From Planctomycetota bacterium (GTDB lineage Bacteria; Planctomycetota; GCA-002687715; DRQF01): DNA of 64,000 nucleotides. The notes beneath the pieces were generated by a model. It had not been told where the DNA came from and did not search any database. It saw nothing but the letters and a program-made list of their open reading frames with translations. Position 1 is the first letter of the stretch; every line of letters starts with the position of its first letter. Position numbers and translations under genes: made by a program. The stretch spans positions 816-64,815 of the forward strand of contig JALTLO010000022.1 in assembly GCA_027001995.1 (NCBI GenBank), read 5' to 3'. Positions 2-34,042 of the stretch are shown piece by piece.

Positions 2-547
2 GTTTGGTCCTCTGGAGGCAAAACCATGGACCAAATTGGCGAAGAGATTGAAGAGTTCTTAGGCACATTGGGCACGACATCAGCAAACTGTGCTGAAATT
101 ATCATCTACGATCACCACATCCCCGAGGCCGATATGCCTCGCCTCTACGCTGGGGCTGATGCATTCGTATTGCCCACGCGAGGAGAAGGCTGGGGACGGC
201 CAATCATGGAGGCCATGGCCAGTGGCGTCTTAGCCATTGCAACCAACTGGAGTGGTTGCACAGAGTTCATGACCAAAGAGAACTCCCTCCCTATCGATTT
301 CGAATTGGCTCCTTGTTCTGCCAAAGCGGTGTCCCAAGCAGCTTGGTTTGCTGGACACAATTGGGCCGAGGTTCATATCCCTCATCTCCAGTTCTTGATG
401 CGGTGTGTCGCTCGCGAGGTCCCATTGCTCAAGAAATTCGCAGCACAAGGCCGCCAAGACATCCTCACTCGCTTTGACCGTAAGGCTATCGGCGCGCAAC
501 TACGCCATCTCTTACTTGAACTTGCCGAGCAAAGAACCAGCAAGTGA
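2..547 (+). CDS. Glycosyltransferase family 1 (GT4-like), C-terminal fragment; 5' end lies upstream of the window
   Basis: The reading frame is open from nt 2. It contains the GT-B C-terminal motif EGWGRPIMEAMASGVLAIATNWSGCTEFM, which matches the E-x7-E signature of retaining GT4 enzymes. Confidence 0.7.
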   Translation, partial: VWSSGGKTMDQIGEEIEEFLGTLGTTSANCAEIIIYDHHIPEADMPRLYAGADAFVLPTRGEGWGRPIMEAMASGVLAIATNWSGCTEFMTKENSLPIDFELAPCSAKAVSQAAWFAGHNWAEVHIPHLQFLMRCVAREVPLLKKFAAQGRQDILTRFDRKAIGAQLRHLLLELAEQRTSK

Positions 548-680: not shown

Positions 681-2639
681 TTATCGGCTGTGGGCGAGCT
701 TCAAGGAAGAATAGATGGTTTCAGTCAACTCTGCGGCCCGATCCCAGTCACAAATCGCTTCGACTCTTTGCGCCAAGATTGACCGAGCCCGTTCGCGCAC
801 GTCCTTTTCCTTGATCGCCTGCAAAATAGCTTCACGGATGGAAACCCGATCACTGGGATCACAGTAATAAGGCGCATCGGCGAAATACTCAAATTCCGAC
901 GAACGGTTACTGACCACCATGGGACAAGCAGCAACAGCAGCTTCAAGATTGGCCAAGGCCGCACCCTCAGAGAAACTGGCAAGGACATGAACCGCAGCAG
1001 CCTTCATGGCCGAAGCCACAATAGCCTGGGGTTGTTTGCCCAAGAAATGAACTCTTGTGCTTGCCGTTTTCTGCACTGCCTCAAGATAATCAACCTCAAA
1101 AGCTGGCCCAATGAAGACAATGTCGAGATCTTGCTCTCGCAACGCTTCCACGACCATAAGCTGGTTCTTGCGACGATCTAAGGCACCAACACAGAGAACG
1201 AAGTCGCGAAGACCAAAGACCTTAATGAAAAGATCTTTCGTTGCCTCTCGAAACGGTTGGGCTTGGACGCCATGAGGAACAACACTGAAGGGAAACGACA
1301 TGGTTTTTGTCTGGCGATAAATGGTCGCCACTTCGTGTTGGCTTGTGACGCAAACGTGATCCACTTTCTTGAGCGCATCTGCAACGCGATCGAAGTAACC
1401 TGGATGGACCTCATTTGCTGCAAAACGGCTGAAATCCCCCAACTGCCCAAATCCACTCTCGTATTTTTGCCACATATCTTGCCGTTGATCCAAGGGCAAG
1501 CGTTGAATAGACATCAAGAAAGGACCAGCCCACATCAATTCACAAAGATCGAGGTAGATTGGCGACCATACGATGGGTGTTCCGGCCTGGTGAATGTGGT
1601 CAATTTGTTTCAACGACGTTTCAGGATTCCAAAGATTGAAACAATGGACCAAGTCATAGGACGAAGTATCCGGCCTGATGTCGTAGGTGACATCTACCTG
1701 GCAACCACGACGCTGCAATGCCTTACGTGTTTCATTCATGACAACAGCTGCCCCACCGTCATTGTCCACATCTTCTCGATAGGCGAACAAGACACGAAGC
1801 ACATAGGGATCACGTTCAGAAATCACAACTTCAGGGGCCGCTGGCTCTTGAGGCCGCCCCTTTTGCCCTTCGACCCAGTGCATAACCGCATCGTCCAGTT
1901 GACTATCTCGCAGCAACAAAGCCCCGGCTGCAATTCTCTCTCCTTGAGACCCTGGAAGAAAGGGAAGTACCATCACTTCGATCCCGGCGCTCAATGCACT
2001 TTCGATCCAGGGAGCTCCAACGTGGGTAATGAGCAAATCCGTACTCGCTAGAACTTCCTCAATAGCGCCAGAGACGAAACGAGGCACTTTGACTCCCAAG
2101 TCAAGAGACCATTGACAAAATGACTCCCGCAACGCAGATTCATCGACTAAGCCAGTGCGGTTGACACGTTCTTCTGGGTCAGGCCGCAAGTGCATCTGAA
2201 CAGAATTACCGACTGCCTCAGCCATGACCATGAGTCGTCTTTGAAGCGCAATCGAGCGGCGGGCCAGATCTCCGTGCAACTCACCATGGGTTATGGGGTG
2301 CGCTGGAGCATATAGAATCGTCAAAGGCGAACAGGCATTCCGATCCTTGGGTAAGACCTCACGGGGTGCAGCCGCTGCAAAGCGTAGGTCTGGAAACCCC
2401 GTCGTCCCGGAGTTGTTGGGGGGGCAGAACTGGTGGAGAGCGGCCTCATAGAGCTCTGGCATGATATCCTGATCTTCCCCACAATGAGGGCAATGATGCT
2501 TTCCCATGGGAACACCACAGACCAGATACTGTTGGCTCGAAAACGTGCCATCACAACGGCCGCAGCGAATCTCCAAGTCGGCACCTGTGCCCCTTGGGCT
2601 AAGTCGGGTGATGCTTGGCCGGAATTTTGTACAAGGCAT
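681..2639 (-). CDS. Glycosyltransferase (GT4-like) with N-terminal zinc-ribbon segment
   Basis: The GT1 C-terminal motif FSEGAALANLEAAVAACPMVVSN is present. The N-terminus carries Cys pairs (CGRCDG ... CPHCGED) resembling a zinc ribbon. The listed ORF starts at a GTG at 2702. The ATG at 2639 is preceded by GGGAG at -8, so I use 2639 as the start. Confidence 0.65.
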   Translation of the reverse strand: MPCTKFRPSITRLSPRGTGADLEIRCGRCDGTFSSQQYLVCGVPMGKHHCPHCGEDQDIMPELYEAALHQFCPPNNSGTTGFPDLRFAAAAPREVLPKDRNACSPLTILYAPAHPITHGELHGDLARRSIALQRRLMVMAEAVGNSVQMHLRPDPEERVNRTGLVDESALRESFCQWSLDLGVKVPRFVSGAIEEVLASTDLLITHVGAPWIESALSAGIEVMVLPFLPGSQGERIAAGALLLRDSQLDDAVMHWVEGQKGRPQEPAAPEVVISERDPYVLRVLFAYREDVDNDGGAAVVMNETRKALQRRGCQVDVTYDIRPDTSSYDLVHCFNLWNPETSLKQIDHIHQAGTPIVWSPIYLDLCELMWAGPFLMSIQRLPLDQRQDMWQKYESGFGQLGDFSRFAANEVHPGYFDRVADALKKVDHVCVTSQHEVATIYRQTKTMSFPFSVVPHGVQAQPFREATKDLFIKVFGLRDFVLCVGALDRRKNQLMVVEALREQDLDIVFIGPAFEVDYLEAVQKTASTRVHFLGKQPQAIVASAMKAAAVHVLASFSEGAALANLEAAVAACPMVVSNRSSEFEYFADAPYYCDPSDRVSIREAILQAIKEKDVRERARSILAQRVEAICDWDRAAELTETIYSSLKLAHSR

Positions 2640-2814
2640 GTTGATCGCTCCCACGGTTCTTCTTGCATAATTATCGACCGCTGGGAGCCGAGACTTGAAC
2701 ACCCAAATGGGTATTCAAGAGTATTGAGTCTATTTGAAGCAGACCTTAGCCCAACTCATTCACAATCGCCTTGCTGGGACAGCGTGGGTGAACTGCTCGG
2801 CTTAAACCATCAAG

Positions 2815-3777
2815 TCAGGAGGCAAGCTCACGGGTCTTCGTGAGAGACGACATAACTTCTTGGATCCCTTGTGGGACCGTCCTGGTGATCTCAAAACCCA
2901 GTGTTTTTTTGATTCGGTCAAAACTGACACGATAGTCGCGAGGATCTTCGTCTTTCTTGACGCGCTCGATCTCAAGCTCGCCCCCGACAGCGTCGCAAAT
3001 CATTGAAACCAACTGCCCCTTCTTATAGTTCTCGGAAGTATCACCGACGTTGAATACCTCTCCGCCCACGTCTTCAGCAGGAGCTTCCAAAGCCAACAGA
3101 ATAGCCCGGGCCGCATCATGAACATGAACATAAGGACGCCAGAATTGCTCGCCATAAACCACAAGCTCTCGGTCTTGCAAGAGATCTCGGGTGAACTCAT
3201 TCACCGTGAGGTCAAAGCGCATCCGCGGCGATGTGCCAAATAAAGTGGCAAACCGCAGAAGGATAGGCATACCTGTTGGTGGCAGACCATGCTCACACTT
3301 GGCCAAAAGATACTGCTCAAACTCGACTTTCGACCGAGCGTACAAAGAGACTGGCCGAAGCTCAGATTTTTCGTTCACATACCCCGTAGCGTCAAGCATG
3401 CGGCCGTAATTGCTGCAAGTCGAAGCAAAGAGAAAACGCTTCACATCAGCAGACACGGCTAAACTATGGAGCTGGATTGAGGCATCAAAATTGACTTCCT
3501 GAGCCAATTCTGGCTCTTTCGCACAGGCGGGATCACCAACAATTCCAGCCAAATGAACCACAGCGTCGATGCCGCACAAGGCGGAACCAACCACATCCAC
3601 ATCGCGAATGTCGCCTTCGATGAATTCGAATTCTTTGACTGTTGCAAGATCACTCAGATGATCCTGCGGACCATGAAGCAAACTATCCAACACGCGAACT
3701 TCATGCTGCTCATTCAAGAGGTGACGCGTGAGGACACTGCCCAAGTAACCTGCGCCGCCGGTGATCAATACGTGCAC
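2815..3777 (-). CDS. NAD-dependent epimerase/dehydratase (extended SDR), candidate nucleotide-sugar 4,6-dehydratase or epimerase of the nonulosonate pathway
   Basis: It has the Rossmann motif ITGGAGYLGS and the catalytic YxxxK (YARSK). The likely GTG start at 3777 overlaps the stop of the upstream gene by 1 nt, with GGGGGAAAG just upstream. The tool's TTG start is at 3792. Confidence 0.8.
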   Translation of the reverse strand: MHVLITGGAGYLGSVLTRHLLNEQHEVRVLDSLLHGPQDHLSDLATVKEFEFIEGDIRDVDVVGSALCGIDAVVHLAGIVGDPACAKEPELAQEVNFDASIQLHSLAVSADVKRFLFASTCSNYGRMLDATGYVNEKSELRPVSLYARSKVEFEQYLLAKCEHGLPPTGMPILLRFATLFGTSPRMRFDLTVNEFTRDLLQDRELVVYGEQFWRPYVHVHDAARAILLALEAPAEDVGGEVFNVGDTSENYKKGQLVSMICDAVGGELEIERVKKDEDPRDYRVSFDRIKKTLGFEITRTVPQGIQEVMSSLTKTRELAS

Positions 3778-4823
3778 TAGTCTTTCCCCCAACCATTTCT
3801 CGCTCGGCTTCGACCAAGATCGTTGATGGCTTTAGCCACTCTCTGGCGGCCGCCTCCATCAATAAATCTCCTGCCGGCTTTCGCCATGCCAATCCTGATG
3901 TTCGGGTCGCATGCTGTTGCAACCAGTCCCACCAATTCCCGGCGAAGGCAATCCTCTTCGGCGGAGGATACAGCTTGCGCCGCTCCAACCGCCACCAACG
4001 CTTCCGCGACATCTACTTCATGAGCTGCGGTGGGCACCAAAACACAGGGTGTTCCAGTCACCGCAAGTTCGTAAGCCGTTCGGCCAGCAGCCGAAACGAC
4101 AAGGTCAGCCGCTACCATGAGTATCGACAAATCCGGTACATTTTCTTGCACCCGAACCTGGGTTTTCATCCGAAAATGTGCGTTTTCTACCACTGTGGCC
4201 TTGGCGAAAGCCGGCCCCTGCACCACAGTAATATGCTCTCCTATACCATTTTCTACCAAAGAGTTAGCGACTATGGGAGTAAAACCCCGGGGGTCTGCCC
4301 CCCCCATGGTCACCAAAATCTCTTTGACCGGCCCGGTCTTGGCACGGCTATTTCGTTTCTTGTCGAAGTCAGAACCCAGAATTGCGTATCGGGGCCCCAA
4401 CAATTGTCGACCAATTTCCCCAGCATAGACATGATTGCTCTGAATGAGGCTGCCGTTCACCAAGAGATCCGCCCTCAAGGTTTTCTGCCCCAGGTCATCG
4501 AGAATCACAACAATGACCCCCATTTGCTGAAGCTGCTGTGTTATCCCTTCCGGTGTTTGGAGCAAGTCGAAAACAACCACATCAGGCTTCAGTGCTTGCA
4601 TGGCTGCGAGTTCCTCATGGGCAGAGGCTGATTCGCTCAACACAGTGACTTGAAAGTCCCGCCTACGAATGAAGTCATTCCCCGCCTGCTCCTCCCGCAT
4701 AAGAAAAAGAGACTCAGCTCCGTAGAACTTCATCTCTTCTGCCAAAGCCAGGCATCGAAACGCATGGCCCATGGCGACATGGAGTATTTGACCAGCATCA
4801 ACACGAAAGAGAATTCGAGTCAT
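3777..4823 (-). CDS. pseG: UDP-2,4-diacetamido-2,4,6-trideoxy-hexose hydrolase, PseG-like (GT-B fold, MurG-related)
   Basis: The N-terminus MTRILFRVDAGQILHVAMGHAFRCLALAEE matches the PseG-family signature (LFR-D, GxGHxxRcLaLA). The C-terminal half resembles a GT-B fold. The start is an ATG. Confidence 0.7.
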   Translation of the reverse strand: MTRILFRVDAGQILHVAMGHAFRCLALAEEMKFYGAESLFLMREEQAGNDFIRRRDFQVTVLSESASAHEELAAMQALKPDVVVFDLLQTPEGITQQLQQMGVIVVILDDLGQKTLRADLLVNGSLIQSNHVYAGEIGRQLLGPRYAILGSDFDKKRNSRAKTGPVKEILVTMGGADPRGFTPIVANSLVENGIGEHITVVQGPAFAKATVVENAHFRMKTQVRVQENVPDLSILMVAADLVVSAAGRTAYELAVTGTPCVLVPTAAHEVDVAEALVAVGAAQAVSSAEEDCLRRELVGLVATACDPNIRIGMAKAGRRFIDGGGRQRVAKAINDLGRSRARNGWGKD

Positions 4824-4867
4824 CCTTCAAACGAACCTTGCGTCACAGTTATCATGAACAAAAACGG

Positions 4868-5635
4868 TTAGTTTCCAGAGCGCATTCTCTGCCAATCTTC
4901 AGTGGCGAAGTTTTGCTCAACGTCAGCATTGACCACGAACATTTCCGGCATTTCATGAGCCAAGGATAACACCTCGCCCAGGTTAAGAGGACTATTGCGC
5001 CGGCTCAATTCATCTTCAACTTCCCGGATCAACTCCAGGTCCACATCGGTGTCGATGGTCAGCCGCAAGTGATCTTGATGAAGATGATCGGGGGCTGCTA
5101 GACGTCCAAAGCAGAACTTCTCCGGATGTTTCGTGATATAGGCGTTGATGTGTTCACGTTCATTGGGACCCTTTGCCTCTTTTTCAGCACGGGCCAGAGC
5201 GGTTGCAGAAAATACTCCAACGTCAGCCCCTAGTGGCAAACCAGGCATCCAGGCGTAGTCCACGTTTTCCCGTTGTGCAAAAGACACAAGATATTCGATG
5301 ATCTTTGGATCAACCAAGGGATTGTCGCCGTATGCCACCACAACGGACTGGCAGCCAGAATTCTTCACCGCCTCTGATACGCGCCCCAAGACATCGTCGC
5401 ATGAGCCGCGAAAAACACGAATTCCCAAGCCTTTGGCAATCTCCACCAACTCGTCATCAGAAGACTTTGTTGTGGTGGCAAGAATCACCTCATCAAGGAA
5501 ACGGACCTGCTTCATCTGCCGAATAACACGCTCAATCAATGGTCGCCCGCCGATGTCGGCCAGAGCTTTTCCTGGCAGGCGAGTCGAGTCATAACGCGAG
5601 ACAATAACACCAGCGGTTGTTCCATTTTCAATCAT
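4868..5635 (-). CDS. CMP-nonulosonate cytidylyltransferase (CTP_transf_3 family, SpsF/PseF/NeuA-like)
   Basis: The N-terminus IVSRYDSTRLPGKALADIGGRPLIERVI resembles SpsF and acylneuraminate cytidylyltransferases. Its ATGA start overlaps the stop of the upstream synthase gene. Confidence 0.75.
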   Translation of the reverse strand: MIENGTTAGVIVSRYDSTRLPGKALADIGGRPLIERVIRQMKQVRFLDEVILATTTKSSDDELVEIAKGLGIRVFRGSCDDVLGRVSEAVKNSGCQSVVVAYGDNPLVDPKIIEYLVSFAQRENVDYAWMPGLPLGADVGVFSATALARAEKEAKGPNEREHINAYITKHPEKFCFGRLAAPDHLHQDHLRLTIDTDVDLELIREVEDELSRRNSPLNLGEVLSLAHEMPEMFVVNADVEQNFATEDWQRMRSGN

Positions 5636-6639
5636 GATGGGCTCCCTTGGCCAACGAGATCTAGGTTTAATTCTTGGTTCTTTTCAATGTCCACCTGAGC
5701 CACTTCCCCAACTACAAGAGCGCGCTGCCACGGTGCCAACTGAGCTTCTGGCCGAACACAAGACACCATGGCATCTGTGATCACTGTACCCTTGGCAATA
5801 GGACCGCTGGCGAAAAGCCCACGGCGATAAAGACGACTTTCCGCACGGTCCGGGCGGCTCTCGTCCACGCAAGCAGAACCCAAAGCGGCTTCAATCACAC
5901 GGATTCCTCGCACCATGCTGGCCAACTCTTCTGGGTCCTGGGACATAGCATGGTCCGGACCAGGCAGAGACTTGTCTGTAGTGAAATGTTTTTCAATGAC
6001 ACAAGCGCCCAAGGCAATGGCCCCGAGAACAACATCGTTGCCTAAGACATGATCACTCCAACCAACATGGGTCCCGAACTCTTCGGCCATCCACGTCATT
6101 GAGCGCAGATGAACATCTTTGGGGTCAGTGGGATACTTCGAAATACAATGCAGGAGAACAACATCATGACAGCCCCCTTCGGCCAGTGCTTCTAAAGCTT
6201 CATTGATCTCCCCATCAGTCGCCATGCCCGTAGACACAATGACTGGCTTACCCTTGGACGCCACATGACGCAAGAGAGGGAGATTCGTTAGGTCCATCGA
6301 AGCAATCTTGAAAGCCGGAGAGCCCAATTCGTCAAGCATGTCGACGCTCCCGGTGTCATAAGGCGTTGACAAGAAATGTACGCCCAACTCTCTGGCGCGA
6401 TTCGCCAGTGTCACATGGGCATCACGATCCAATTCACCATGGCGAATGACATCAAAATGGGCGACAGAGTCCAACACCAATTGATTGGCATGATAGGTCT
6501 GAAACTTAACAGCGTTTGCACCAGCGGCGGCTGCGGCCTCGATCATTTCAATGGCGAGATCCAACTTGCCTTCGTGGTTGAAGCCAATTTCTGCGATCAC
6601 GTAGGCTTGGCTGCCAATTTCAAATTCAGCAATATTCAT
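5632..6639 (-). CDS. N-acetylneuraminate/pseudaminate synthase family (NeuB/PseI-like) with C-terminal SAF domain
   Basis: The motif NIAEFEIGSQAYVIAEIGFNHEGKLDLAIEMIEAAAAAGANAVKFQTY is a NeuB signature, and the C-terminus has a SAF-like segment. The listed 432-aa ORF is over-extended. The in-frame ATG at 6639 (MNIAEFEIG) lies 20 nt downstream of the preceding gene's stop at 6659. Confidence 0.85.
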   Translation of the reverse strand: MNIAEFEIGSQAYVIAEIGFNHEGKLDLAIEMIEAAAAAGANAVKFQTYHANQLVLDSVAHFDVIRHGELDRDAHVTLANRARELGVHFLSTPYDTGSVDMLDELGSPAFKIASMDLTNLPLLRHVASKGKPVIVSTGMATDGEINEALEALAEGGCHDVVLLHCISKYPTDPKDVHLRSMTWMAEEFGTHVGWSDHVLGNDVVLGAIALGACVIEKHFTTDKSLPGPDHAMSQDPEELASMVRGIRVIEAALGSACVDESRPDRAESRLYRRGLFASGPIAKGTVITDAMVSCVRPEAQLAPWQRALVVGEVAQVDIEKNQELNLDLVGQGSPS

Positions 6640-6658
6640 AGTTATTTCTTTCGTGGGT

Positions 6659-7990
6659 TTATTCCCGCCACACGCCTCCTTGCCATTCCATGTTTTCCAT
6701 GTCCCAGTCGTCTGGAACCCATTCGGCGCCGTGCTTTTCAACGCCATGTCGGCAGTAGTCACATCCCCGCAATTGACAGCGACGATTGTCTTGATGAATC
6801 TTACGGATCTGATTGAGTTTCTTTGACTGCCAAGCGTCCGCGATTGTTGTCTCAGGGTTCTTGACAGTACGCCAGACACCGTCTTCCCCGCGCACCTTCT
6901 TTTCATTCGTACCAAGGTAGCGGCCGACAACTAAGTTCTGCTCTTCGTTGTGAGCGCCGGTGCAGGGCAAAAGAACACCGTTGGCTGAAAGAGTGAGTCT
7001 TTGGAAGGGATACTGGCAAGCCCAGTCGTCTAGAACCACATCATCCGGCAAGTCATCTTCGCGAAAATCCAAGAGTTCATTTACCGTAATCCAGCCCACA
7101 CCAGCTTTCTTCATGAAGTCATGATAGGCCTGGGGGTCTTTGGCGATAGCGGGATAAATCGTGTTTGTGCGGATCTGGGGCCGTGTCTTACCAGCGGCAT
7201 CTCGTGCGGCTACAAGTCGCTTGATGTTGCTGGCGACCACCTCGAAGGCATCATAGTCCGTGCCTTCTTTGTTCTTCGGCGTACGAATCTTGTTGTAGAC
7301 TGTGTTAAGACCATCAACAGAGAAGCTAATCCAGCTAGGCTCGGCTTCCACAAGAGCCCCTATCATCTCGTCGTCAAGAAGCTGGCCATGAGTGAGAGAG
7401 GTAATCTCCAAGATCCCCTTCTCCCGGGCATATTTCAAAACATCCGGAAAACGAACTTCTTTGCCATCTTCGTCCCGCCCGCGATACATGGATGATTCAC
7501 CACGCCAACTAAAGAGCATCGACGGAACATCCAAGCTGGCGCATTCATCGATGGCCGCCTTCACCACGGGCCAAGGCAACATCCTTTGGGCTCCAACGGC
7601 TGCATCCTGAAACTCCTCCGTCATGGTGTAGCACATGCTACAGCCCAAATTGCAAGTGCTCACAAGTTCAACAGTGACGGCCAGAGGCTGAGGACCGGGA
7701 TCAAACTCCTTGGCCCTACGATACCACTCAGACCGATAGTGATCGTAGCGCTGGCGTTCTTTGATTGTTGGAAATTGGGCGTGGAGGAAAGCCTCCTCGC
7801 GACTCATCGTATCGAAACTGAATTGAGAAGCATTCACTGGGACTTGGTCCTTGTGCCCCTGCCAGTCCTTCTTGAGCTGTTCTTCTCGCGGTCGAATCGA
7901 CGTTGTGCTGCGCGGCATTTCTTTCCCCAGTTGGCCCCAAGTAACCATGACCTCGATCTCATGAATGAGCCCCGAAAGGTGCATATTCAT
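6659..7990 (-). CDS. Radical SAM enzyme with C-terminal SPASM-like Cys cluster
   Basis: It has the CxxxCxxC motif (STCNLGCSMCYT) and a C-terminal Cys-rich tail (CQLRGCDYCRHG). Alternative starts lie at 7948 (MVTWGQ) and 7807. The first 14 codons of the listed ORF are made up of one copy of the CGATCTCATGAATGAG repeat. Confidence 0.75.
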   Translation of the reverse strand: MNMHLSGLIHEIEVMVTWGQLGKEMPRSTTSIRPREEQLKKDWQGHKDQVPVNASQFSFDTMSREEAFLHAQFPTIKERQRYDHYRSEWYRRAKEFDPGPQPLAVTVELVSTCNLGCSMCYTMTEEFQDAAVGAQRMLPWPVVKAAIDECASLDVPSMLFSWRGESSMYRGRDEDGKEVRFPDVLKYAREKGILEITSLTHGQLLDDEMIGALVEAEPSWISFSVDGLNTVYNKIRTPKNKEGTDYDAFEVVASNIKRLVAARDAAGKTRPQIRTNTIYPAIAKDPQAYHDFMKKAGVGWITVNELLDFREDDLPDDVVLDDWACQYPFQRLTLSANGVLLPCTGAHNEEQNLVVGRYLGTNEKKVRGEDGVWRTVKNPETTIADAWQSKKLNQIRKIHQDNRRCQLRGCDYCRHGVEKHGAEWVPDDWDMENMEWQGGVWRE

Positions 7991-8092
7991 GCGGTTCCAC
8001 GATTTGAGTTATCGGCGGCTTCAGCATGAATATTCAGTAGAATCGAGAAAGAAGATGAGGCGGCTGGAGAAAAGGCGTTTTGTGGTGCCAAA

Positions 8093-8721
8093 TTAGGCCA
8101 AATAGCGGATAACCTGAAAACACTCCACAGCCCTCAATCCGAAGGCGCGAGCATCCCTTTCATTCGCCAGGAGTATTTCTTCAACCAAAGCTGAAAGCCC
8201 TCTGCCGATCTCAGAATCATGGGCCAAGCAAGCTGCCTTTTTCTGCTCAAAGGACTCCGAAATATCTCGAATCAAGCGCCCGTCAAAAACCACAGATCCG
8301 GGATAGAGATTGCTACGATAGCAAAGAAACGTGGGTATATGCCGGCAAGCTGAAAGAGATGCACGGGCCAAGTTGTGATGATCAAGGTGAACATCCCCCA
8401 GCCAATGCCCATAGACAATATCCGGCTTCCATTGGTCGACTAAGCCCCGAATCGCCACAACCAAGGCCTCGTCACAAGCCAAATTGTTGGTTTCGAATTC
8501 TCCGCAGACAAGCTTCTCTACCCCCAGAATTTTGGCAGCAGCCTCTCCTTCGGCCCGGGCAACTCCCGCATCCCGAAGGGACTTCCCATTGAGACCGACG
8601 TAACCTGAATGGGTAGCCACAAACACGGCCACCTGGTCACCATCGGCTGTGTGTTTGGCCAAACTGCCACCGCAGCCAATCTCCACGTCGTCAAAATGTG
8701 CGCCAATGGCGAGTATTCTCA
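8093..8721 (-). CDS. PIG-L/LmbE family N-acetyl-sugar deacetylase
   Basis: MRILAIGAHFDDVEIGCGGSL matches the AHPDDE-type motif, and downstream His and Asp residues are present. The listed ORF carries a 22-aa N-terminal extension from a TTG start. The ATG (MRIL) is the likelier start. Confidence 0.8.
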
Positions 8722-8913
8722 TAGATTTCTCGTTGCTTTCCTCTTTGAGAATCGGGCTTTCAACCAAATAGCATGAATGAAAACCCAAGTTAGGAGCGAA
8801 TTTAGCCGACTAATTATGCATGGGGGCGACATGGAACACCCCGTTTGGGCTCATTCCTGGGCCACTGATATGTGCTATCCTACTGAGGATAAACAGCTTG
8901 TGAAGGAGCCCCT

Positions 8914-10062
8914 ATGTGGAAGGTACCCCTGTTTGACAGCAGCATCGGAGCTGAGGAGAAAGACGCCGTCTTGGCCGTTCTCGACTCTGGCTGGCTAACC
9001 ATGGGCCCCATTACCCAGGACTTTGAGCGGCGTTTCGCCGCTCACATCGGAGCCGAGCATGGCATCGCTGTCGCCAATGGCACCGCAGCTCTGCACATGA
9101 GTTTGGTGGCCTGTGACATCCAAGAAGGCGACGAAGTTATCTGTCCTTCCCTCACTTTCTCCGCCACGGCCAATGCAATTCTCCATGCGGGGGGTACGCC
9201 AATTTTTGCCGATGTCGCAAGCGAACTCAGCCTCAACATTTCTGCTGAGACGATCAAGCCCAAGATCTCGCCGATGACGAAAGCGATCTTAGTCGTCCAT
9301 TACGCTGGCTATCCATGCGACATGCCAGCCATCAATGCCCTGGCCGATGAGTATGGCCTCAAAGTTATCGAAGATGCAGCCCATGCCCCGGGTGCCCATT
9401 GGCAAGGCAAGTCTTGTGGAACTTTTGGTGCAACTGGCTGCTTTAGCTTCTACAGCAACAAGAACATGACCACCGGGGAAGGTGGCATGATTACTACCAA
9501 CGATGCTGAGCTGGCCGATCAATTGAGATTGCTACGCTCCCACGGCATGACGACGAGCACCAGCGATCGTCACAGCGGTAAGGCCCGTAGCTATGATGTA
9601 ACCACATTGGGATTCAACTACCGTATTGATGAGATTCGTAGTGCTATTGGTCGTTGCCAATTGGAGAAGCTCAAGGTGCGCAACCAAAAGCGAGCAACCC
9701 TCGACCAACTCTATCGCCAGCTTCTTACCGATGTAGAGGAAATCGTCGTCCCATTCGACTCAAATGTAGCATCAAATGGTTCCTCCTGCCACGTCATGTC
9801 AACAATTCTAAAAGCTGACTTAGGTGTTTCGGCTTTCCGTCAGTCGCTCAAGGAATCGGGTGTGCAAACAAGCCATCATTACCCGGCGATACACTTGCTT
9901 GCATGGTATCGCCAGACCTTCGGATACCAGGGTGGTCTATTGCCAATCACCGAGTCTGTATCGGAATCTCAGGTGACCCTTCCTCTCTATCCTCAGATGA
10001 CGGAAGAGATGGTAGAAATCGTTGTTGAGGCCATAAAATCTGCTTTGGTACGGAGTCATTAG
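8914..10062 (+). CDS. DegT/DnrJ/EryC1/StrS-family PLP-dependent sugar aminotransferase (PseC/LegC-like)
   Basis: The N-terminus (GPITQDFERRFA...AVANGTAALH) and the PLP-lysine region SFYSNKNMTTGEGG are present. An AAGGAG Shine-Dalgarno sits 6 nt upstream of the ATG. Confidence 0.85.
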   Translation: MWKVPLFDSSIGAEEKDAVLAVLDSGWLTMGPITQDFERRFAAHIGAEHGIAVANGTAALHMSLVACDIQEGDEVICPSLTFSATANAILHAGGTPIFADVASELSLNISAETIKPKISPMTKAILVVHYAGYPCDMPAINALADEYGLKVIEDAAHAPGAHWQGKSCGTFGATGCFSFYSNKNMTTGEGGMITTNDAELADQLRLLRSHGMTTSTSDRHSGKARSYDVTTLGFNYRIDEIRSAIGRCQLEKLKVRNQKRATLDQLYRQLLTDVEEIVVPFDSNVASNGSSCHVMSTILKADLGVSAFRQSLKESGVQTSHHYPAIHLLAWYRQTFGYQGGLLPITESVSESQVTLPLYPQMTEEMVEIVVEAIKSALVRSH

Positions 10063-11778
10063 ATGCGTATTTTAGGCCTCAATCACGACATGTTCATTTC
10101 GTCTGCCGCCTTGATAGAGGACGGAAACGTCATCGCCGCTGTGGCCGAAGAGAGACTCACGCGAGATAAGCGCACTCGGGCTTTTCCCCGCAAGTCTATC
10201 GCCTATTGCCTCGAAGAAGCAGGCATCAAGATCGAAGATGTGGACGCCATCGCAACGTCCTGGAACCCAGGCGCCTACTTTCGCAAATTCAATCCCCTGG
10301 TTTCAAACAAACGTCGACACATGGCTGAGCATCTCTTTGCGGTGCCTGACCATTTGATCGATATGTTCCCCCAAGGAGACCACACAGCTCCCTGGCTCGA
10401 ACTGCGTATCCCCATCATGGGCCACATGTGCCGCGTCTTCTATGTCACCCATCATAGTGCTCATGCAGCAAACGCCTATCATCTGTCGCCTTTCGAGGAT
10501 GCGGCCATCTTGACTGCTGATTCCCAAGGAGAATACGAATCCACAACATTCCAGCATGGGCAGGGCAGCACGATCAGTAAACTCCGTTCCATAGACTTCC
10601 CCCAATCTCTGGGAGCTTTCTACGCTACATTCACCGAATTTCTTGGCTTTCGACCCAACTCTGATGAGTGGAAAGTCATGGCCTTGGGTGCCTACGAAGA
10701 GGGCCACAACCCTTATGACGACATTCTAGAAGAGGTGGTATCCCTGGATCAAGACGGAGGGTACACCTTCGATTTATCCTTCTTCCAAGGATTCATGCCA
10801 GACAAACTTAATCTTTACACCCCTCACCTCATCGCGCGCTTTGGCGAGGCACGTCAAGCTGACGAAGAATTGTGCCAAAGGCATTTCCAGATCGCCGGCG
10901 CCGTCCAAAGACGAGCGGAAAATCTAGCATTTCACATGATGCGCCAACTCCAAAAGGAAACCGGCTCCAAGAATCTTTGCGTCGCCGGAGGGTTCTTCAT
11001 GAACAGTCTGCTCAACGGCAAGATTCGCGAAAACACGCCTTTCGAAAAGGTCTTCATCTCATCCTGCCCTGACGACTCTGGCAATGCCATTGGCGCTGCC
11101 CTTTATGCCATGAATGACATCTTGGGCAACGACACCCGGGTCCCACAGACTCACAACTATTTTGGACCAGCTTTTGGCAACACCGAGATCGCAGAAGCCA
11201 TTGAAAAGTATGGCCTGAAAGCTGAACCTTGCGAAAATATCGCTGAGTCATGCGCCCAACTCCTTGAGGAGGGAGCGCTGATTGGCTGGTTCCAAGGAAG
11301 AATGGAATTGGGCCAAAGAGCCCTTGGTTGCCGATCGATCTTGGCCGACCCCCGGCAAGCTTCCACCCGGGATCAAGTGAACTTGGCAGTAAAATACCGC
11401 GAGAAGTTTCGACCATTCGCACCTGCAATTCTAAAGGAAGAAGCAGCCAAGTGGTTCAACATCGATTCTGATGTGGAGGTCCCGTTCATGGAACAAGTCC
11501 ACATGGTGCGGCCAGAAAAACGAGATGCCATCCCTGCTTGTGTGCATGCTGATGGAACAGGACGGCTTCAAACCGTGGACGCCGAAACAAACCTCTTGTT
11601 TCATCAGCTGATTTCTGCATTTCGCAAGAGGACTGGGGTTCCGGTCTTGCTCAATACATCTTTTAACCTCAATGGCGAGCCTGTTGTTTCGAATCCCACT
11701 GACGCCATTCGGACGTTCTTCTCTTGTGGCTTAGACGTCTTGGCTATGGGTAACTATTTAATCAAGAAGAACGGATGA
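10063..11778 (+). CDS. NodU/CmcH-family carbamoyltransferase
   Basis: The N-terminus MRILGLNHDMFISSAALIEDGNVIAAVAEERLTRDKRTRAFP is typical of the family, and the protein is 571 aa. It is translationally coupled to the upstream gene (TAGATG). Confidence 0.85.
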   Translation: MRILGLNHDMFISSAALIEDGNVIAAVAEERLTRDKRTRAFPRKSIAYCLEEAGIKIEDVDAIATSWNPGAYFRKFNPLVSNKRRHMAEHLFAVPDHLIDMFPQGDHTAPWLELRIPIMGHMCRVFYVTHHSAHAANAYHLSPFEDAAILTADSQGEYESTTFQHGQGSTISKLRSIDFPQSLGAFYATFTEFLGFRPNSDEWKVMALGAYEEGHNPYDDILEEVVSLDQDGGYTFDLSFFQGFMPDKLNLYTPHLIARFGEARQADEELCQRHFQIAGAVQRRAENLAFHMMRQLQKETGSKNLCVAGGFFMNSLLNGKIRENTPFEKVFISSCPDDSGNAIGAALYAMNDILGNDTRVPQTHNYFGPAFGNTEIAEAIEKYGLKAEPCENIAESCAQLLEEGALIGWFQGRMELGQRALGCRSILADPRQASTRDQVNLAVKYREKFRPFAPAILKEEAAKWFNIDSDVEVPFMEQVHMVRPEKRDAIPACVHADGTGRLQTVDAETNLLFHQLISAFRKRTGVPVLLNTSFNLNGEPVVSNPTDAIRTFFSCGLDVLAMGNYLIKKNG

Positions 11779-12473
11779 AAACGGTCTGCATTCATCAACC
11801 CGATTTTGCTCCTTGGTTAGGATTCTTTGACCGGCTCATAGACGCCGATGTCTACGTTGTCTTCGACGATGCGCAATTTCTACGAAGAGGATGGCACCAC
11901 CGGGATAAGATTATAGGACCCCAAGGGACCCAGTGGCTTACGGTCCCCGTCCTCAAAAAAGGCCGCTACCACCAAGAGATACGAGACGTCAAAATCGACG
12001 AAAGCACGAACTGGCGGCGAAAACACTTGCAAACATTAACCAGTGTCTATGGTAGTCGCCCTGGCTTTGAATCGACTCACCATCAAATCACGGAGATATA
12101 CGATCGCCAGCATGAGCGCTTGATCGACCTCAACATGGATCTCATTTCTTGGCTCCTGAGAGTTCTTGACATCGAAGTTCAGATCTGCATGAGCTCTGAA
12201 TTCGGCCTCAAATCTAAGTCTACGGATCGTTTAGTCGAGTTAACACAAGCTTTGGGGGGCACGACGTACATTTCAGGTTTGGGTGCCAAGAACTACTTAG
12301 ACGAAGAGGCATTTCGCCAGCAAAACATCAAAGTACGCTGGCAAGAGTTCCTCCACCCCACTTGGGATCAAGGCCAAAGTACGTTTCTTTCTATGCTTTC
12401 CACACTAGACACCTTGTACCAAGGTGCAACTCAGACGAAGATGCTGTCCAGAGAGGGGCAGGACGAAAGTTGA
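11775..12473 (+). CDS. WbqC-like family protein (function unknown, found in O-antigen/nonulosonate clusters)
   Basis: The N-terminus MKTVCIHQPDFAPWLGFFDRL matches the WbqC-like signature (IHQPxxxPWLGxF). It overlaps the upstream gene's stop as ATGA. Confidence 0.6.
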   Translation: MKTVCIHQPDFAPWLGFFDRLIDADVYVVFDDAQFLRRGWHHRDKIIGPQGTQWLTVPVLKKGRYHQEIRDVKIDESTNWRRKHLQTLTSVYGSRPGFESTHHQITEIYDRQHERLIDLNMDLISWLLRVLDIEVQICMSSEFGLKSKSTDRLVELTQALGGTTYISGLGAKNYLDEEAFRQQNIKVRWQEFLHPTWDQGQSTFLSMLSTLDTLYQGATQTKMLSREGQDES

Positions 12474-12500
12474 ACAGCATCGTTAATCGGAGCCGAGCCC

Positions 12501-13469
12501 TTGACCATCGAAATCGTCAAACAAACGGACCACGACGGGACTAGTCTCGCCCGGGTCATAGCGCGACTTCGGCGCTTGCCCCATGATGAGATAGTAGGAT
12601 TAGATCAACATCTTCGCCGCCTTGCTCTGGAGCGGGATCTAAAGAAAAACTTGAACGACCCATCGGTCCACATATGGGTCGGCCGTGAAAAAGGCGAAGA
12701 CACGGGCATCGCAGTGCTCAAACATCTCACTTGGGATAGTGAGATCTTGGGGGTGAGCTGCGCTTCCATTGCAATTTATCTTACCGATTGCGATCAATCT
12801 TCCCGCCAAGCTACAGCCTCTCTCCTCATTCACCAGGCCCTACTCCGCTGTCGTACAGAGGACATTCACTTCGTTTCAACAAAAGTCTTCAGCGACCAAT
12901 TCGCTCAAATACACGCCCTTGAAGATCTCAATTTCCGTCTCATGGATGCAGAAATGATCTTGCGCTACCACGGCGAACGAGACGAGATTCAAGACGTCCC
13001 GGAAATCAACTTCGTCAAAAAACAGAAGGAAGAAGTCCCCGGGTTGTCCACCATGGGCAAGCTCTTTCACATGAGCCGCTTCTTCGCCGACCCTAAGTTA
13101 GGCCCCGAACGGGCAGACCGACTCTGGCAAGAAAGCGTTACTGATAGCTGTCGTGGCCATGCAGATAGTTTCCTCGTGGCTATGGAAGACAACAAGGCAC
13201 AAGGTTTCGTCACCTTCATGGACAACCCCGATTTCTTCGGTTTGGGGGGTCCATCCATACGCAACTTTTTCCATGTGGGTATCGCCCAAGAAGCCCAAGG
13301 CAAAGGCCTGGGCACTGCCCTCATTCATGCTGCCCTCCGTGACAGCAGCGCCTTTGACCACATCATGGTCGAAACCCAATCCCGTAACACAGGCGCCTTA
13401 GCTCTCTACCAAAAATGCGGTTTCCGCATCCTCGGCTCCCGCTTCGCCTTCCATTTGTGGATGGCTTAG
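12501..13469 (+). CDS. GNAT-family N-acetyltransferase (two GNAT-like halves; PseH-like candidate)
   Basis: The C-terminus HVGIAQEAQGKGLGTALIHAAL...ALYQKCGF is an acetyl-CoA-binding motif. The start is a TTG, and the exact start is uncertain. Confidence 0.7.
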   Translation: MTIEIVKQTDHDGTSLARVIARLRRLPHDEIVGLDQHLRRLALERDLKKNLNDPSVHIWVGREKGEDTGIAVLKHLTWDSEILGVSCASIAIYLTDCDQSSRQATASLLIHQALLRCRTEDIHFVSTKVFSDQFAQIHALEDLNFRLMDAEMILRYHGERDEIQDVPEINFVKKQKEEVPGLSTMGKLFHMSRFFADPKLGPERADRLWQESVTDSCRGHADSFLVAMEDNKAQGFVTFMDNPDFFGLGGPSIRNFFHVGIAQEAQGKGLGTALIHAALRDSSAFDHIMVETQSRNTGALALYQKCGFRILGSRFAFHLWMA

Positions 13470-14796: not shown

Positions 14797-14965
14797 GTGC
14801 GAAAAATGACTCACTCAATTCATCTTGATCCCCACCCAATCAGAGAGAAGGATCTACCTGTTGATGATGTCTCGCAATCTACGGAATTATCTTTAGCTTA
14901 AGATCCTTTCGTCGCGGGTTTCAGCACCTTCGCTGTTCAACGGAATTGGAAAACTTGGAGAATAC

Positions 14966-16628: not shown

Positions 16629-16966
16629 CTAGATGTCGCCCCACAACAAACGACACTCCTCGAATAAAAACCCACGACCACTGGGTATCCAAAAGATTAT
16701 TGGTGAGATTCCTCAATTCTCCTCAACAGCCATGCAAAGGGCTTCCGACAAGGGCTACAAGGAAAAAATGCCGTCAGGACAAATCGTTTCCTCGTGAAAC
16801 AGGACTTCCGGATAGGCACCAACGGGCCCAGATGCGATCGCGGCAGAACCGAACGCTGCGGAGAAATGGATAGAACCCAAGAAAAACTGCTTTAAGTGCA
16901 GGGGGCATCCTCCCGTGAGGATCAGTTCATAGGGCTCGATTTAATTGGAATAGTTTGGAGAGAAGG

Positions 16967-20994: not shown

Positions 20995-21045
20995 TATTGT
21001 CTTCCTTGTGTAGATGGACCCAAAAGCAGGTCGCACCTGCCACAA

Positions 21046-34022: not shown

Positions 34023-34042
34023 GGACGTGCCAGTATCCTTGC

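What the first reader, a model, noticed from the sequence alone, without database searches (positions are those of the whole stretch)
681..13469. Nonulosonic-acid biosynthesis island decorated with a radical SAM/SPASM enzyme, a NodU-type carbamoyltransferase, a PIG-L deacetylase, WbqC and a double GNAT
The core of a pseudaminic/legionaminic-type pathway is all here. It comprises an SDR epimerase/dehydratase, a DegT aminotransferase, a GNAT, a PseG-like UDP-sugar hydrolase, a NeuB/PseI-family synthase and a CMP-transferase. In canonical Pse or Leg clusters these six steps suffice. Four further enzymes sit between them: a radical SAM/SPASM protein, a carbamoyltransferase, a PIG-L deacetylase and a WbqC-like protein. 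Two glycosyltransferases flank the island. Coupled overlaps (ATGA, TAGATG) suggest two divergent operons that share the 8722-8913 intergenic region. Together this predicts a heavily tailored CMP-nonulosonate, possibly N-deacetylated and re-acylated, carbamoylated, and modified by radical chemistry. Such a sugar would be transferred onto a glycan or glycoprotein. I am not aware of a characterised pathway that combines these functions.
Basis: partly seen in the sequence, partly recalled or inferred. Interest (0 to 1): 0.75.

Follow-up and report, generated by a model that had tools for sequence, protein, structure and literature searches.

The report
Conserved tailored nonulosonic-acid sugar gene cluster
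This is a real gene cluster for a sialic-acid-like nine-carbon sugar, and its four "extra" enzymes recur with it in many bacterial phyla, which points to an uncharacterised but widespread modified sugar.

Summary
Window 681-13469 carries two divergent, translationally coupled operons. They encode a GT4 glycosyltransferase, an SDR, a PseG-like hydrolase, a CTP_transf_3 cytidylyltransferase, NeuB, a radical SAM enzyme, a PIG-L deacetylase, DegT, a NodU/TobZ-type carbamoyltransferase, WbqC and a GNAT.

Three corrections apply:
- The SDR is not a PseB/LegB-type dehydratase. Its closest solved relative, PDB 6vo6, is (from my memory of the entry) the C4-dehydrogenase Cj1427.
- The "double GNAT" matches WecD: an N-terminal domain plus one GNAT.
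- Both glycosyltransferases lie on the left flank.

The main new result is that the "decorations" are not ad hoc. The radical SAM protein belongs to a tightly conserved family (47-88% identity across at least eight phyla). It almost always sits with NeuB, PIG-L, WbqC, DegT and a carbamoyl- or formyl-transferase. Two Planctomycetota MAGs carry all twelve genes in the same order.

Structure prediction shows a radical SAM with one Cys4 auxiliary cluster (Twitch type, BtrN-like). WbqC has a class-I aminoacyl-tRNA-synthetase/BshC-like fold.

I propose an Sps/Leg-like CMP-nonulosonate pathway. It would include a deacetylate-and-re-acylate step (PIG-L plus WbqC), carbamoylation and a radical oxidation.

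No characterised equivalent was found. This is a new variant of a known kind, and the chemistry is inferred.

The parts
26..547 (+). C-terminal end of a large (about 1000 aa in orthologues) tandem GT4 glycosyltransferase; the gene starts before the window
   Evidence: Glyco_trans_1_4 and Glycos_transf_1 matches. Orthologues of 1003-1188 aa sit at the same position in L006, L007 and L008.
681..2639 (-). Glycosyltransferase of 652 aa: an N-terminal CxxC...CPxC zinc ribbon, a half-GT-B-like region of about 200 aa, and a C-terminal GT4 domain
   Evidence: Glycos_transf_1, E 8.3e-17, at aa 500-640 of the long ORF. The start at 2639 and the N-terminal motifs are conserved in L006-L008 and L010. The sugar donor is unknown.
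2815..3777 (-). Extended SDR with motifs STCSNYG...YxxxK and no dehydratase Asp/Glu pair; putative NDP-sugar C4 dehydrogenase or epimerase
   Evidence: PF01370, E 1.8e-43; PseB and LegB models far below cutoff. Best PDB match is 6vo6/6vo8, E 1e-49, about 41% identity over the full length. The GTG start overlaps the PseG stop codon.
3777..4823 (-). PseG/SpsG-like nucleotide-sugar hydrolase
   Evidence: TIGR03590 PseG, 159 bits against a cutoff of 153.55; MurG only 31.5 bits.
4868..5635 (-). SpsF-like cytidylyltransferase (putative CMP-nonulosonate synthetase)
   Evidence: PF02348 CTP_transf_3, E 2.6e-31. Best PDB match is 6oew 'Cytidylyltransferase', E 7e-28. ATGA overlap with NeuB.
5632..6639 (-). 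NeuB-family nonulosonate synthase (335 aa)
   Evidence: PF03102, E 1.2e-83, plus a SAF domain. NeuB_NnaB 336 bits and PseI 296 bits, both below cutoff. Best PDB match is B. subtilis SpsE 1vli, E 2.4e-52.
6659..7918 (-). Radical SAM enzyme (419 aa) with CX3CX2C and a single Cys4 auxiliary-cluster (Twitch-type) C-terminal domain
8093..8722 (-). PIG-L/LmbE-family de-N-acetylase (209 aa) with AHxDD and HxDH motifs present
   Evidence: PF02585, E 7.7e-20. Best NCBIfam match is BshB1, 77 bits, below cutoff. Motifs read from the translation.
8723..8913 (.). Divergent intergenic region shared by the two operons
   Evidence: Read from the sequence. One weak sigma-70-like site on each strand, not above shuffle expectation. 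No Rfam match.
8914..10062 (+). DegT/PseC/ArnB-like PLP sugar aminotransferase
   Evidence: PF01041, E 4.7e-121. PseC 327 bits (cutoff 423.5) and ArnB 310 bits.
10063..11778 (+). NodU/CmcH/TobZ-family carbamoyltransferase
   Evidence: Carbam_trans_N, E 1.5e-54, and Carbam_trans_C, E 7.4e-68. PDB matches: 7xb6 E 7e-95, GdmN, NovN, TobZ E 1e-80.
11775..12473 (+). WbqC-family protein; predicted class-I aaRS/BshC-like Rossmann (HUP) fold; candidate amino-sugar N-acyl ligase
12501..13469 (+). WecD-like N-acetyltransferase: an N-terminal extension and domain plus one GNAT domain
   Evidence: PF00583, E 4.5e-16, at aa 208-308 only. NF008212 dTDP-4-amino-4,6-dideoxygalactose acyltransferase, E 1.6e-17, over aa 72-312. 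PDB WecD 2fs5.

Best explanation
The island is one member of a conserved, horizontally spread and still uncharacterised variant of the UDP-linked Sps/legionaminic-type CMP-nonulosonate (NulO) pathway.

Proposed route, with inferred steps marked:
1. A common nucleotide sugar, probably UDP-GlcNAc, is oxidised at C4 by the Cj1427-like SDR. In this lineage there would be no 6-deoxygenation (inferred).
2. DegT transaminates the 4-keto sugar.
3. The WecD-like GNAT acetylates the new 4-amine.
4. The BshB-like PIG-L enzyme removes the original 2-N-acetyl group. WbqC, a minimal class-I aaRS/BshC-like domain, re-acylates the freed amine with a carboxylate, most likely an amino acid. This mirrors the MshB-to-MshC and BshB-to-BshC logic (inferred).
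5. The PseG-like hydrolase releases the free sugar.
6. NeuB condenses the sugar with PEP.
7. The SpsF-like enzyme makes the CMP-sugar.
8. The TobZ/NodU-type enzyme adds a carbamoyl group to a hydroxyl, or less likely to the new acyl amine (inferred).
9. The Twitch-type radical SAM enzyme, always next to or near NeuB, performs a BtrN-like SAM-dependent oxidation of a sugar C-H/C-OH. This could be dehydrogenation leading to a keto, epimerised or aminated centre (inferred, and the least certain step).
10. The adjacent GT4-type proteins put the sugar, or its acceptor glycan, onto a surface glycoconjugate.

What is shown: the family assignments, the operon structure, the cross-phylum conservation of the module and the predicted folds. 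What is inferred: the substrates, the order of steps and the product.
For: An Sps-like core:
- The best solved NeuB relative is SpsE.
- PseG/SpsG and CTP_transf_3 matches are.
- The B. subtilis pathway uses UDP-linked sugars and keeps its dehydratase at a separate locus (PMC7439481).

Conservation:
- The radical SAM family has 314 clusters; the listed ones are 54-88% identical to the window protein.
- There are 19 genome loci from Planctomycetota, Chloroflexota, Desulfobacterota, Alphaproteobacteria including SAR11, Parcubacteria, Ignavibacteria-like (Stygiobacter) and Nitrospirae.
- Co-occurrence over 20 loci, many of them truncated: NeuB 15, PIG-L 13, PseG-like 13, WbqC 12, DegT 11, carbamoyltransferase 11.
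- L012 has the co-linear order DegT-Carbam-WbqC-GNAT-PIG-L-rSAM-(rSAM)-NeuB-CMPtr. This is the window's two operons joined.

The SDR: E 1e-49 to 6vo6, with no Asp/Glu dehydratase pair. Cj1427 releases a 4-keto sugar without dehydration (PMC10680097).

WbqC:
- WbqC and PIG-L lie side by side in B. mycoides, next to a FemAB-family protein, and the two also lie close together in L012 and L013.
- E. coli O121, the namesake of WbqC, carries an amide-linked N-acetylglycine on its O antigen (PMC7685785).

The radical SAM:
- Exactly four invariant C-terminal Cys.
- No RiPP-recognition-like domain in the model.
Against: - No enzyme was assayed and no glycan from any carrier organism is known.
- WbqC has no sequence-level link to BshC or MshC. 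Foldseek found nothing significant, best E 0.014. A HIGH/KMSKS-type ATP site is not evident in the sequence.
- Carbamoyl- and formyl-transferases co-occur in four loci.
- Every characterised carbamoyltransferase that I recognise among the solved structures matched (TobZ, GdmN, NovN) is, to my knowledge, an O-carbamoyltransferase.
- Some Planctomycetota (L010) carry the PIG-L...GT operon without DegT, Carbam, WbqC or GNAT within 10 kb.
- Other phyla use a dehydratase-type SDR (TSTSEVYG), so "no 6-deoxygenation" cannot be general.
- That PDB 6vo6 is Cj1427 rests on my memory of the entry.
Confidence: 0.5

Rival explanations
1. There are two pathways side by side. The minus-strand operon (PIG-L, rSAM, NeuB, cytidylyltransferase, PseG-like, SDR, GT) makes a nonulosonate on its own. 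The plus-strand operon (DegT, carbamoyltransferase, WbqC, GNAT) makes a separate N-acylated, carbamoylated 4-amino hexose nucleotide for the same glycan, as WbqC does for Qui4N in O-antigen clusters.
For: - WbqC occurs in amino-sugar clusters that have no NeuB: B. mycoides, Rhizobium (with rfbB and a thymidylyltransferase gene) and Azospirillum.
- L008 and L010 Planctomycetota, and L009 Chloroflexota, show the minus-strand set without the plus-strand genes nearby.
Against: - The plus-strand operon has no enzyme of its own to make the keto-sugar that DegT needs.
- The minus-strand operon alone has no aminotransferase, although its hydrolase is PseG-type.
- In L012, L013 and L017 the two gene sets are interleaved in one co-directional array.
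- L008 and L009 are cut off just upstream of PIG-L, so absence there is not informative.
Confidence: 0.2
2. This is an ordinary legionaminic or pseudaminic acid island. The extra enzymes act after transfer, on the finished glycan or on other substrates, and are merely neighbours.
For: - Carbamoylation of finished oligosaccharides and aminoglycosides is what I know NodU and TobZ to do; the carbamoyltransferase matches both families.
- PIG-L enzymes, to my knowledge, often act on glycoconjugates.
Against: - The rSAM-NeuB adjacency and the PIG-L/WbqC/carbamoyltransferase co-occurrence persist across at least eight phyla despite rearrangements. That is hard to explain without a shared pathway.
- All predicted products appear cytoplasmic and soluble; no signal peptides are evident in the translations.
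- The core enzymes miss the Pse and Leg equivalog cutoffs.
Confidence: 0.15
3. The radical SAM/SPASM protein is a peptide (RiPP) or protein maturase that happens to be embedded in a sugar locus.
For: - The best NCBIfam hits are maturases, all far below cutoff.
Against: - No precursor-peptide gene lies beside it. The flanking gaps are about 175 nt upstream and 19 nt downstream, and translation of the upstream gap shows no small Cys-rich ORF.
- There is no RRE-like wHTH domain; the N-terminal 75 aa are helical.
- Only one auxiliary cluster is predicted.
- Strict association with NeuB in 15 of 20 loci.
- Sugar-active Twitch enzymes score almost as high as the maturases.
Confidence: 0.04

Closest known systems
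Bacillus subtilis Sps legionaminic-acid pathway (SpsM, C, D, G, E, F; PMC7439481)
   Same: Both have a DegT aminotransferase, a GNAT, a PseG-like hydrolase, a NeuB-family synthase and a CTP_transf_3 cytidylyltransferase. SpsE is the best solved match for the window NeuB. UDP-linked logic is likely here too, because the island has no nucleotidyltransferase gene.
   Different: The window has no PglF/SpsM-type 4,6-dehydratase anywhere; it has a Cj1427-like SDR instead. It adds a PIG-L deacetylase, WbqC, a carbamoyltransferase and a Twitch radical SAM, none of which belongs to the Sps pathway. Its acetyltransferase is WecD-like.
Campylobacter/Helicobacter pseudaminic (PseBCHGIF) and C. jejuni legionaminic (LegBCHGIF/PtmE) pathways
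   Same: The overall scheme is the same: keto-sugar, transamination, N-acylation, nucleotide removal, PEP condensation and CMP activation. PseG passes its equivalog cutoff.
   Different: PseB, PseC, PseI, PseF, LegB and LegC all fall below their cutoffs. I found no NeuC-type 2-epimerase and no PtmE in this window, although PtmE-like genes occur in related loci of other phyla.
Mycothiol and bacillithiol biosynthesis (MshB/BshB deacetylase, then MshC/BshC ligase, then MshD)
   Same: A PIG-L deacetylase whose best NCBIfam match is BshB1 is paired with a protein whose best structural match is BshC; MshC is also hit. The logic would be the same: expose the amine of a GlcNAc-derived unit, then acylate it with an amino acid.
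   Different: WbqC is only 232 aa and consists of the core Rossmann domain alone. It has no sequence similarity to BshC or MshC, no demonstrated ATP site and no known substrate. The context is a NulO or O-antigen pathway, not a thiol cofactor. The acetyltransferase is WecD-like rather than an MshD-type double GNAT.
BtrN (butirosin) and other Twitch radical SAM dehydrogenases (SpeY), and the decarboxylase BlsE
TobZ / NodU / GdmN / NovN O-carbamoyltransferases
   Same: The full two-domain architecture (Kae1-like plus YrdC-like). E 1e-80 to 7e-95 against solved members.
   Different: Far below the NodU equivalog cutoff (174 bits against 1000). The acceptor would be a nonulosonate or its precursor. 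I found no report of a carbamoylated NulO.
E. coli O121 / Shigella dysenteriae 7 wbq O-antigen cluster (origin of the name WbqC)
   Same: It contains a WbqC-family protein alongside a DegT-type aminotransferase. The O121 antigen carries amide-linked N-acetylglycine (PMC7685785).
   Different: That sugar is a dTDP-linked 4-amino-6-deoxyhexose, not a NulO. The cluster has no radical SAM, PIG-L or carbamoyltransferase as far as I know, and the role of WbqC there has not been tested.

Membership tests
Pseudaminic acid pathway (PseB, C, H, G, I, F) | PseB inverting UDP-GlcNAc 4,6-dehydratase (TIGR03589 / Polysacc_synt_2 type) | tested here: not met
   The SDR scores 38.6 bits against a cutoff of 407.75, over the N-terminal 120 aa only. 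No such gene was found among the other window ORFs of at least 200 aa that were scanned.
Pseudaminic acid pathway (PseB, C, H, G, I, F) | PseG UDP-sugar hydrolase (TIGR03590) | tested here: met
   159 bits against a cutoff of 153.55, full-length match.
Pseudaminic acid pathway (PseB, C, H, G, I, F) | PseC, PseI and PseF at equivalog level | tested here: not met
   PseC 327.3 against 423.5; PseI 295.8 against 340.25; PseF 27 against 205.7. The Pfam superfamilies DegT, NeuB and CTP_transf_3 are met.
C. jejuni-type legionaminic acid pathway | LegB dehydratase, LegC aminotransferase, a NeuC-like hydrolysing 2-epimerase (LegG), and the PtmE guanylyltransferase | tested here: not met
   LegB 77 against 475 and LegC 248 against 420. 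Every gene of the island has another assignment, so there is no NeuC-like or NTP_transferase gene in it. PtmE-like and dehydratase-type SDR genes do occur in related loci L011, L016, L017 and L022.
B. subtilis Sps-type UDP-linked Leg pathway | SpsC (DegT), SpsD (GNAT), SpsG (PseG-like), SpsE (NeuB) and SpsF (CTP_transf_3) homologues together | tested here: met
   All five families are present. SpsE 1vli is the best PDB match for NeuB. Only SpsE was compared directly; the other four were matched at family level, not against Sps sequences.
B. subtilis Sps-type UDP-linked Leg pathway | [quoted passage not shown] | tested here: inconclusive
   Not found in the 64-kb window. In B. subtilis this gene is also unlinked (PMC7439481), so one may lie elsewhere in the genome. 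The product is not testable here.
Radical SAM, SPASM/Twitch subgroup | CX3CX2C motif, partial TIM barrel and a C-terminal Cys-rich auxiliary-cluster domain | tested here: met
NodU/CmcH carbamoyltransferases | Carbam_trans_N (Kae1-like) plus Carbam_trans_C (YrdC-like) domains | tested here: met
   186 and 228 bits. TobZ, GdmN and NovN structures match at E 1e-80 or better. The NodU equivalog is not met: 174 bits against 1000.
PIG-L / LmbE deacetylases | PF02585 domain with the AHxDD and HxDH metal and catalytic motifs | tested here: met
   72 bits against 28.2. 'GAHFDD' and 'HLDHH' are read in the translation. The BshB1 equivalog is not met: 77 bits against 182.5.
WbqC family (PF08889) | Full-length match to the family model | tested here: met
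   231.5 bits against 21.3, covering positions 1-210 of 218.
BshC/MshC-type amino acid:aminosugar ligases (class-I aaRS-like) | Class-I aaRS catalytic Rossmann fold | tested here: inconclusive
BshC/MshC-type amino acid:aminosugar ligases (class-I aaRS-like) | Sequence membership, an ATP-binding signature and ligase activity | tested here: not met
   No NCBIfam family at E <= 0.01. No PDB sequence match, best E 0.66 to an unrelated protein. No HIGH-like motif was seen in the conserved N-terminal 'HQPD' segment. Activity is not testable with these tools.
MshD-type double GNAT | Two tandem GNAT domains | tested here: not met
   The N-terminal 170 aa give no Pfam hit even at E <= 10. The whole protein aligns to WecD, an N-domain plus one GNAT.

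The most novel reading that the evidence does not exclude
The module makes a new class of nonulosonic acid. Its carbon skeleton or substituents would be altered by radical SAM chemistry, for example an extra keto or amino centre or an epimerised centre installed by a BtrN-like Twitch enzyme acting on a NulO or its precursor. In Planctomycetota the sugar may retain the C9 hydroxyl, because a Cj1427-like C4-dehydrogenase replaces the 4,6-dehydratase. In addition, WbqC proteins would be the long-missing ligases that attach amino acids to amino sugars, as in the N-acetylglycyl group of E. coli O121. That would also give a handle on the unresolved BshC reaction.
Probability: 0.3. Interest if true: 0.8.

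Novelty: new variant of a known kind. Interest (0 to 1): 0.6.

Why it matters
Nonulosonic acids decorate flagella, S-layers, capsules and LPS. They govern motility, phage and immune recognition, and surface charge.

A pathway variant shared by Planctomycetota, sulfate reducers, SAR11, Chloroflexota and CPR bacteria would mean a common environmental surface sugar that nobody has described. It would be built with a radical SAM enzyme, which would be unusual chemistry for sialic-acid-like sugars.

The structural link between WbqC and BshC/class-I aaRS, together with the recurring PIG-L partner, gives a concrete and testable function for a Pfam family of unknown function found in many O-antigen clusters.

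Desulfobacter latus AcRS2 is a cultured carrier with the module next to flaG. That makes the prediction experimentally accessible.

Tried and rejected
1. An "HP-motif" sialyl/Kdo-transferase or TagF/SpsB-like domain in the N-terminus of the 652-aa GT, suggested by 'ILYAPAHP' and 'DLLITHVG'. Rejected: relaxed Pfam search gave nothing relevant, and the His is not conserved in orthologues, which read APALP.
2. A "double GNAT" of the MshD type. Rejected in favour of WecD-like.
Weakened: both are present in L011, L015, L017 and L023.
4. The SDR as a 4,6-dehydratase. Rejected on motif and best-hit grounds.
5. A dehydratase elsewhere in the window. None was found.
6. Literature search for a characterised equivalent, using WbqC; radical SAM with nonulosonic, legionaminic or pseudaminic; and nonulosonic with carbamoyl. 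Nothing relevant came up. The O121/S. dysenteriae 7 pathway paper and the Cj1427 structure paper are not held.
7. A sequence-level link from WbqC to any solved structure. None was found.
8. Independent Foldseek confirmation of the BshC similarity. It gave only weak matches, some to class-I aaRS enzymes. The AFDB library was unavailable.
9. Homologue search with the GT N-terminal domain. It returned nothing although orthologues exist, and this is unexplained.
10. Promoter and terminator scan: not above shuffle expectation. No Rfam hit and no tRNA.

Full report
OBSERVATION

Window 681-13469 contains eleven genes in two divergent sets.

Minus strand, with starts refined from homologue lengths and alignments:
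- GT4 glycosyltransferase, 681-2639
- SDR, 2815-3777
- PseG-like hydrolase, 3777-4823
- CTP_transf_3 cytidylyltransferase, 4868-5635
- NeuB, 5632-6639
- radical SAM, 6659-7918
- PIG-L deacetylase, 8093-8722

Plus strand:
- DegT, 8914-10062
- carbamoyltransferase, 10063-11778
- WbqC, 11775-12473
- GNAT, 12501-13469

Pfam and NCBIfam matches are strong.

To the right of 13469 the genes are unrelated: an HPF-like ORF, a CBS protein, two alginate-export-type porins and a qNor. On the left the window opens inside a second, very large GT4 gene, of which 26-547 is the C-terminus. Its orthologues are 1003-1188 aa. Both glycosyltransferases therefore lie on one side of the island.

WHAT THE CORE IS

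- Only PseG reaches its NCBIfam equivalog cutoff (159 bits against 153.6). PseB, PseC, PseI, PseF, LegB and LegC do not.
- The NeuB protein's best solved relative is B. subtilis SpsE (1vli, E 2.4e-52), ahead of a PseI structure.
- The cytidylyltransferase is SpsF/CTP_transf_3-like.
- The closest characterised core is therefore the UDP-linked Sps legionaminic-acid pathway. That pathway also keeps its 4,6-dehydratase at a separate locus (PMC7439481).
- The SDR is not a dehydratase by motif. It reads STCSNYG where dehydratases have T-D/S-E.
- The SDR is much closer to PDB 6vo6/6vo8 (E 1e-49, about 41% identity, full length) than to any epimerase (1e-28) or dehydratase (1e-23).
- I recall 6vo6 as C. 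jejuni Cj1427, and the deposited molecule name fits. I could not verify this because the paper is not held.
- Cj1427 is a C4-dehydrogenase that releases a 4-keto nucleotide sugar without dehydration (PMC10680097).
- No dehydratase was found among the other window ORFs of at least 200 aa that were scanned.
- The 322-aa acetyltransferase matches WecD, the dTDP-4-amino-4,6-dideoxygalactose acyltransferase, over residues 72-312. Its N-terminal part gives no GNAT signal.

THE EXTRA ENZYMES ARE A CONSERVED MODULE

The radical SAM protein has 314 homologue clusters of about 419 aa; the 120 listed are 54-88% identical to it. A genome scan returned 19 loci. They come from Planctomycetota, Chloroflexota, Desulfobacter latus, Syntrophobacteraceae, Desulfovibrionaceae, Rhodospirillales, Hyphomicrobiales, Pelagibacteraceae, Parcubacteria, Stygiobacter and Nitrospirae.

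A tblastn matrix and ORF clustering show the following:
- Two Planctomycetota MAGs (L006, L007) hold all twelve window genes in the same order and orientation, at 57-88% identity.
- Across 20 loci, many of them cut by contig ends, the counts are NeuB 15, PIG-L 13, PseG-like 13, WbqC 12, SDR 11, cytidylyltransferase 11, DegT 11 and carbamoyltransferase 11.
- The WecD-like GNAT, a formyltransferase, a sugar-1-P nucleotidyltransferase and a B12-radical SAM each occur in 6 loci.
- In L012 the order is DegT-Carbam-WbqC-GNAT-PIG-L-rSAM-(second rSAM/SPASM)-NeuB-cytidylyltransferase on one strand. This is the window's two operons joined.
- In Desulfobacter latus the module sits next to flaG.
- There are two flavours. 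The window, other Planctomycetota and a Rhodospirillales MAG use the Cj1427-like SDR. Stygiobacter, Desulfovibrionaceae and SAR11 loci have a dehydratase-type SDR (TSTSEVYG), and two of these three also carry a PtmE-like CBS-nucleotidyltransferase.

STRUCTURES

The radical SAM model is confident (pLDDT 92.8).
- The family has exactly seven invariant cysteines: CX3CX2C plus C301, C319, C386 and C389.
- That means one fully Cys-ligated auxiliary cluster, which is a Twitch domain rather than a full SPASM domain.
- There is no RRE-like domain and no room for an obvious precursor-peptide gene.

The WbqC model is also confident (pLDDT 91.9).
- Foldseek gives no significant hit. Its more probable matches (prob 0.5-0.85) are to TyrRS.
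- There is no sequence-level link.

Context supports an acyl-ligase reading:
- The window PIG-L's best NCBIfam hit is BshB1.
- WbqC and PIG-L lie close together in L012 and L013, and are directly adjacent in a B. mycoides plasmid cluster, where a FemAB-family protein is also next to WbqC.
- WbqC relatives always sit in amino-sugar clusters.
- E. coli O121, which gave WbqC its name, carries amide-linked N-acetylglycine (PMC7685785).

MECHANISM PROPOSED

Inference is marked.
1. An Sps/Leg-like route starts from a common nucleotide sugar.
2. The SDR oxidises C4. In this lineage there would be no 6-deoxygenation (inferred).
3. DegT transaminates.
4. The WecD-like GNAT acetylates the new 4-amine.
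5. PIG-L removes the original N-acetyl, and WbqC re-acylates the freed amine, probably with an amino acid. This parallels MshB/MshC and BshB/BshC (inferred).
6. PseG-like hydrolysis, NeuB condensation with PEP and CMP activation follow.
7. The TobZ/NodU-type enzyme carbamoylates. By family precedent, as I know it, the target is most likely a hydroxyl.
8. The Twitch radical SAM performs a BtrN-like oxidation on the sugar. Its conserved position beside NeuB suggests it acts on the NulO or its immediate precursor (inferred, and the weakest step).
9. The neighbouring GT4 proteins build or decorate the acceptor glycan. No recognisable CMP-sugar transferase was identified.

RIVALS

- Two separate sugars encoded side by side. 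This is supported by WbqC clusters that lack NeuB, and by L010, which lacks the plus-strand genes within 10 kb. It is opposed by interleaved co-linear arrays in other phyla and by the mutual dependence of the two operons.
- A plain Leg or Pse island with unrelated neighbours. This is opposed by the cross-phylum conservation.
- A RiPP maturase. This is opposed by the context and the domain architecture.

NOVELTY

I found no paper describing this gene set, a radical SAM enzyme in a NulO pathway, a carbamoylated NulO, or a function for WbqC. The library is limited to open-access papers.

I rate it a new variant of a known kind: a NulO biosynthesis cluster with a conserved, uncharacterised tailoring module. 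Interest is moderate to high. The module is widespread and includes radical chemistry. The WbqC-BshC/aaRS link is a testable functional lead. All of the chemistry remains inferred.

Noticed in passing
window 14946-16571 and 16955-18562 (+), 18667-21057 (-), 21163-22701 (+): Two paralogous Alginate_exp-type outer-membrane porin genes in tandem, each with a coiled-coil N-terminus. Next to them are a quinol-type nitric oxide reductase (NorB_cytochrome_c-like plus COX1) and a GAF/sigma-54 activator. This looks like a possible NO-responsive unit.
   Followed up: partly
window about 33261-43621: A second glycan-type region: a GDSL lipase/acylhydrolase, a Wzx-like flippase (Polysacc_synt_3), a 549-aa GT2, and several ORFs of 314-532 aa with no Pfam match.
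   Followed up: partly
L004/L010 8059-9878 (Planctomycetota HK-STAS-PLAN-3, JACKGY010000004.1): An AAA_15 ATPase plus DUF4276 gene pair is inserted between PIG-L and the radical SAM gene of the orthologous operon. It looks like a defence-type two-gene cassette that landed inside the sugar operon.
   Followed up: no
L003/L013 10001-13522; L009 3055-4347; L012 10058-11116: Other versions of the module carry one or two additional true SPASM radical SAM genes between the Twitch rSAM and NeuB. Six loci also carry a B12-binding radical SAM. Methyltransferases and sulfotransferases are present too. This suggests a hotspot of NulO tailoring diversity.
   Followed up: partly
L028 7101-9359 (Bacillus mycoides plasmid NZ_CP020744.1): A FemAB-family protein (annotated as GNAT, but matching TIGR03019/FemX), WbqC and PIG-L are adjacent in an amino-sugar cluster that has no NeuB. 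An aminoacyl-tRNA-dependent transferase next to an aaRS-fold protein hints at aminoacylation chemistry.
   Followed up: partly
window 1743-2639 (-): The N-terminal 300 aa or so of the 652-aa glycosyltransferase has a conserved CxxC...CPxC zinc ribbon and a half-GT-B-like segment (THVGAPxIExALxAGxEV) with no Pfam match. A homologue search with this region returned nothing, although orthologues exist in L006-L008 and L010.
   Followed up: partly
L006 20516-21256, L007 17257-18180, L010 18834-20138: Serine hydroxymethyltransferase (glyA) lies just beyond the glycosyltransferases in the Planctomycetota loci. It is probably a housekeeping gene marking the island boundary. It also produces glycine, so a link to an N-glycyl substituent cannot be excluded.
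   Followed up: no
whole window: There are no tRNA genes and no Rfam family matches at gathering threshold anywhere in the 64 kb.
   Followed up: yes
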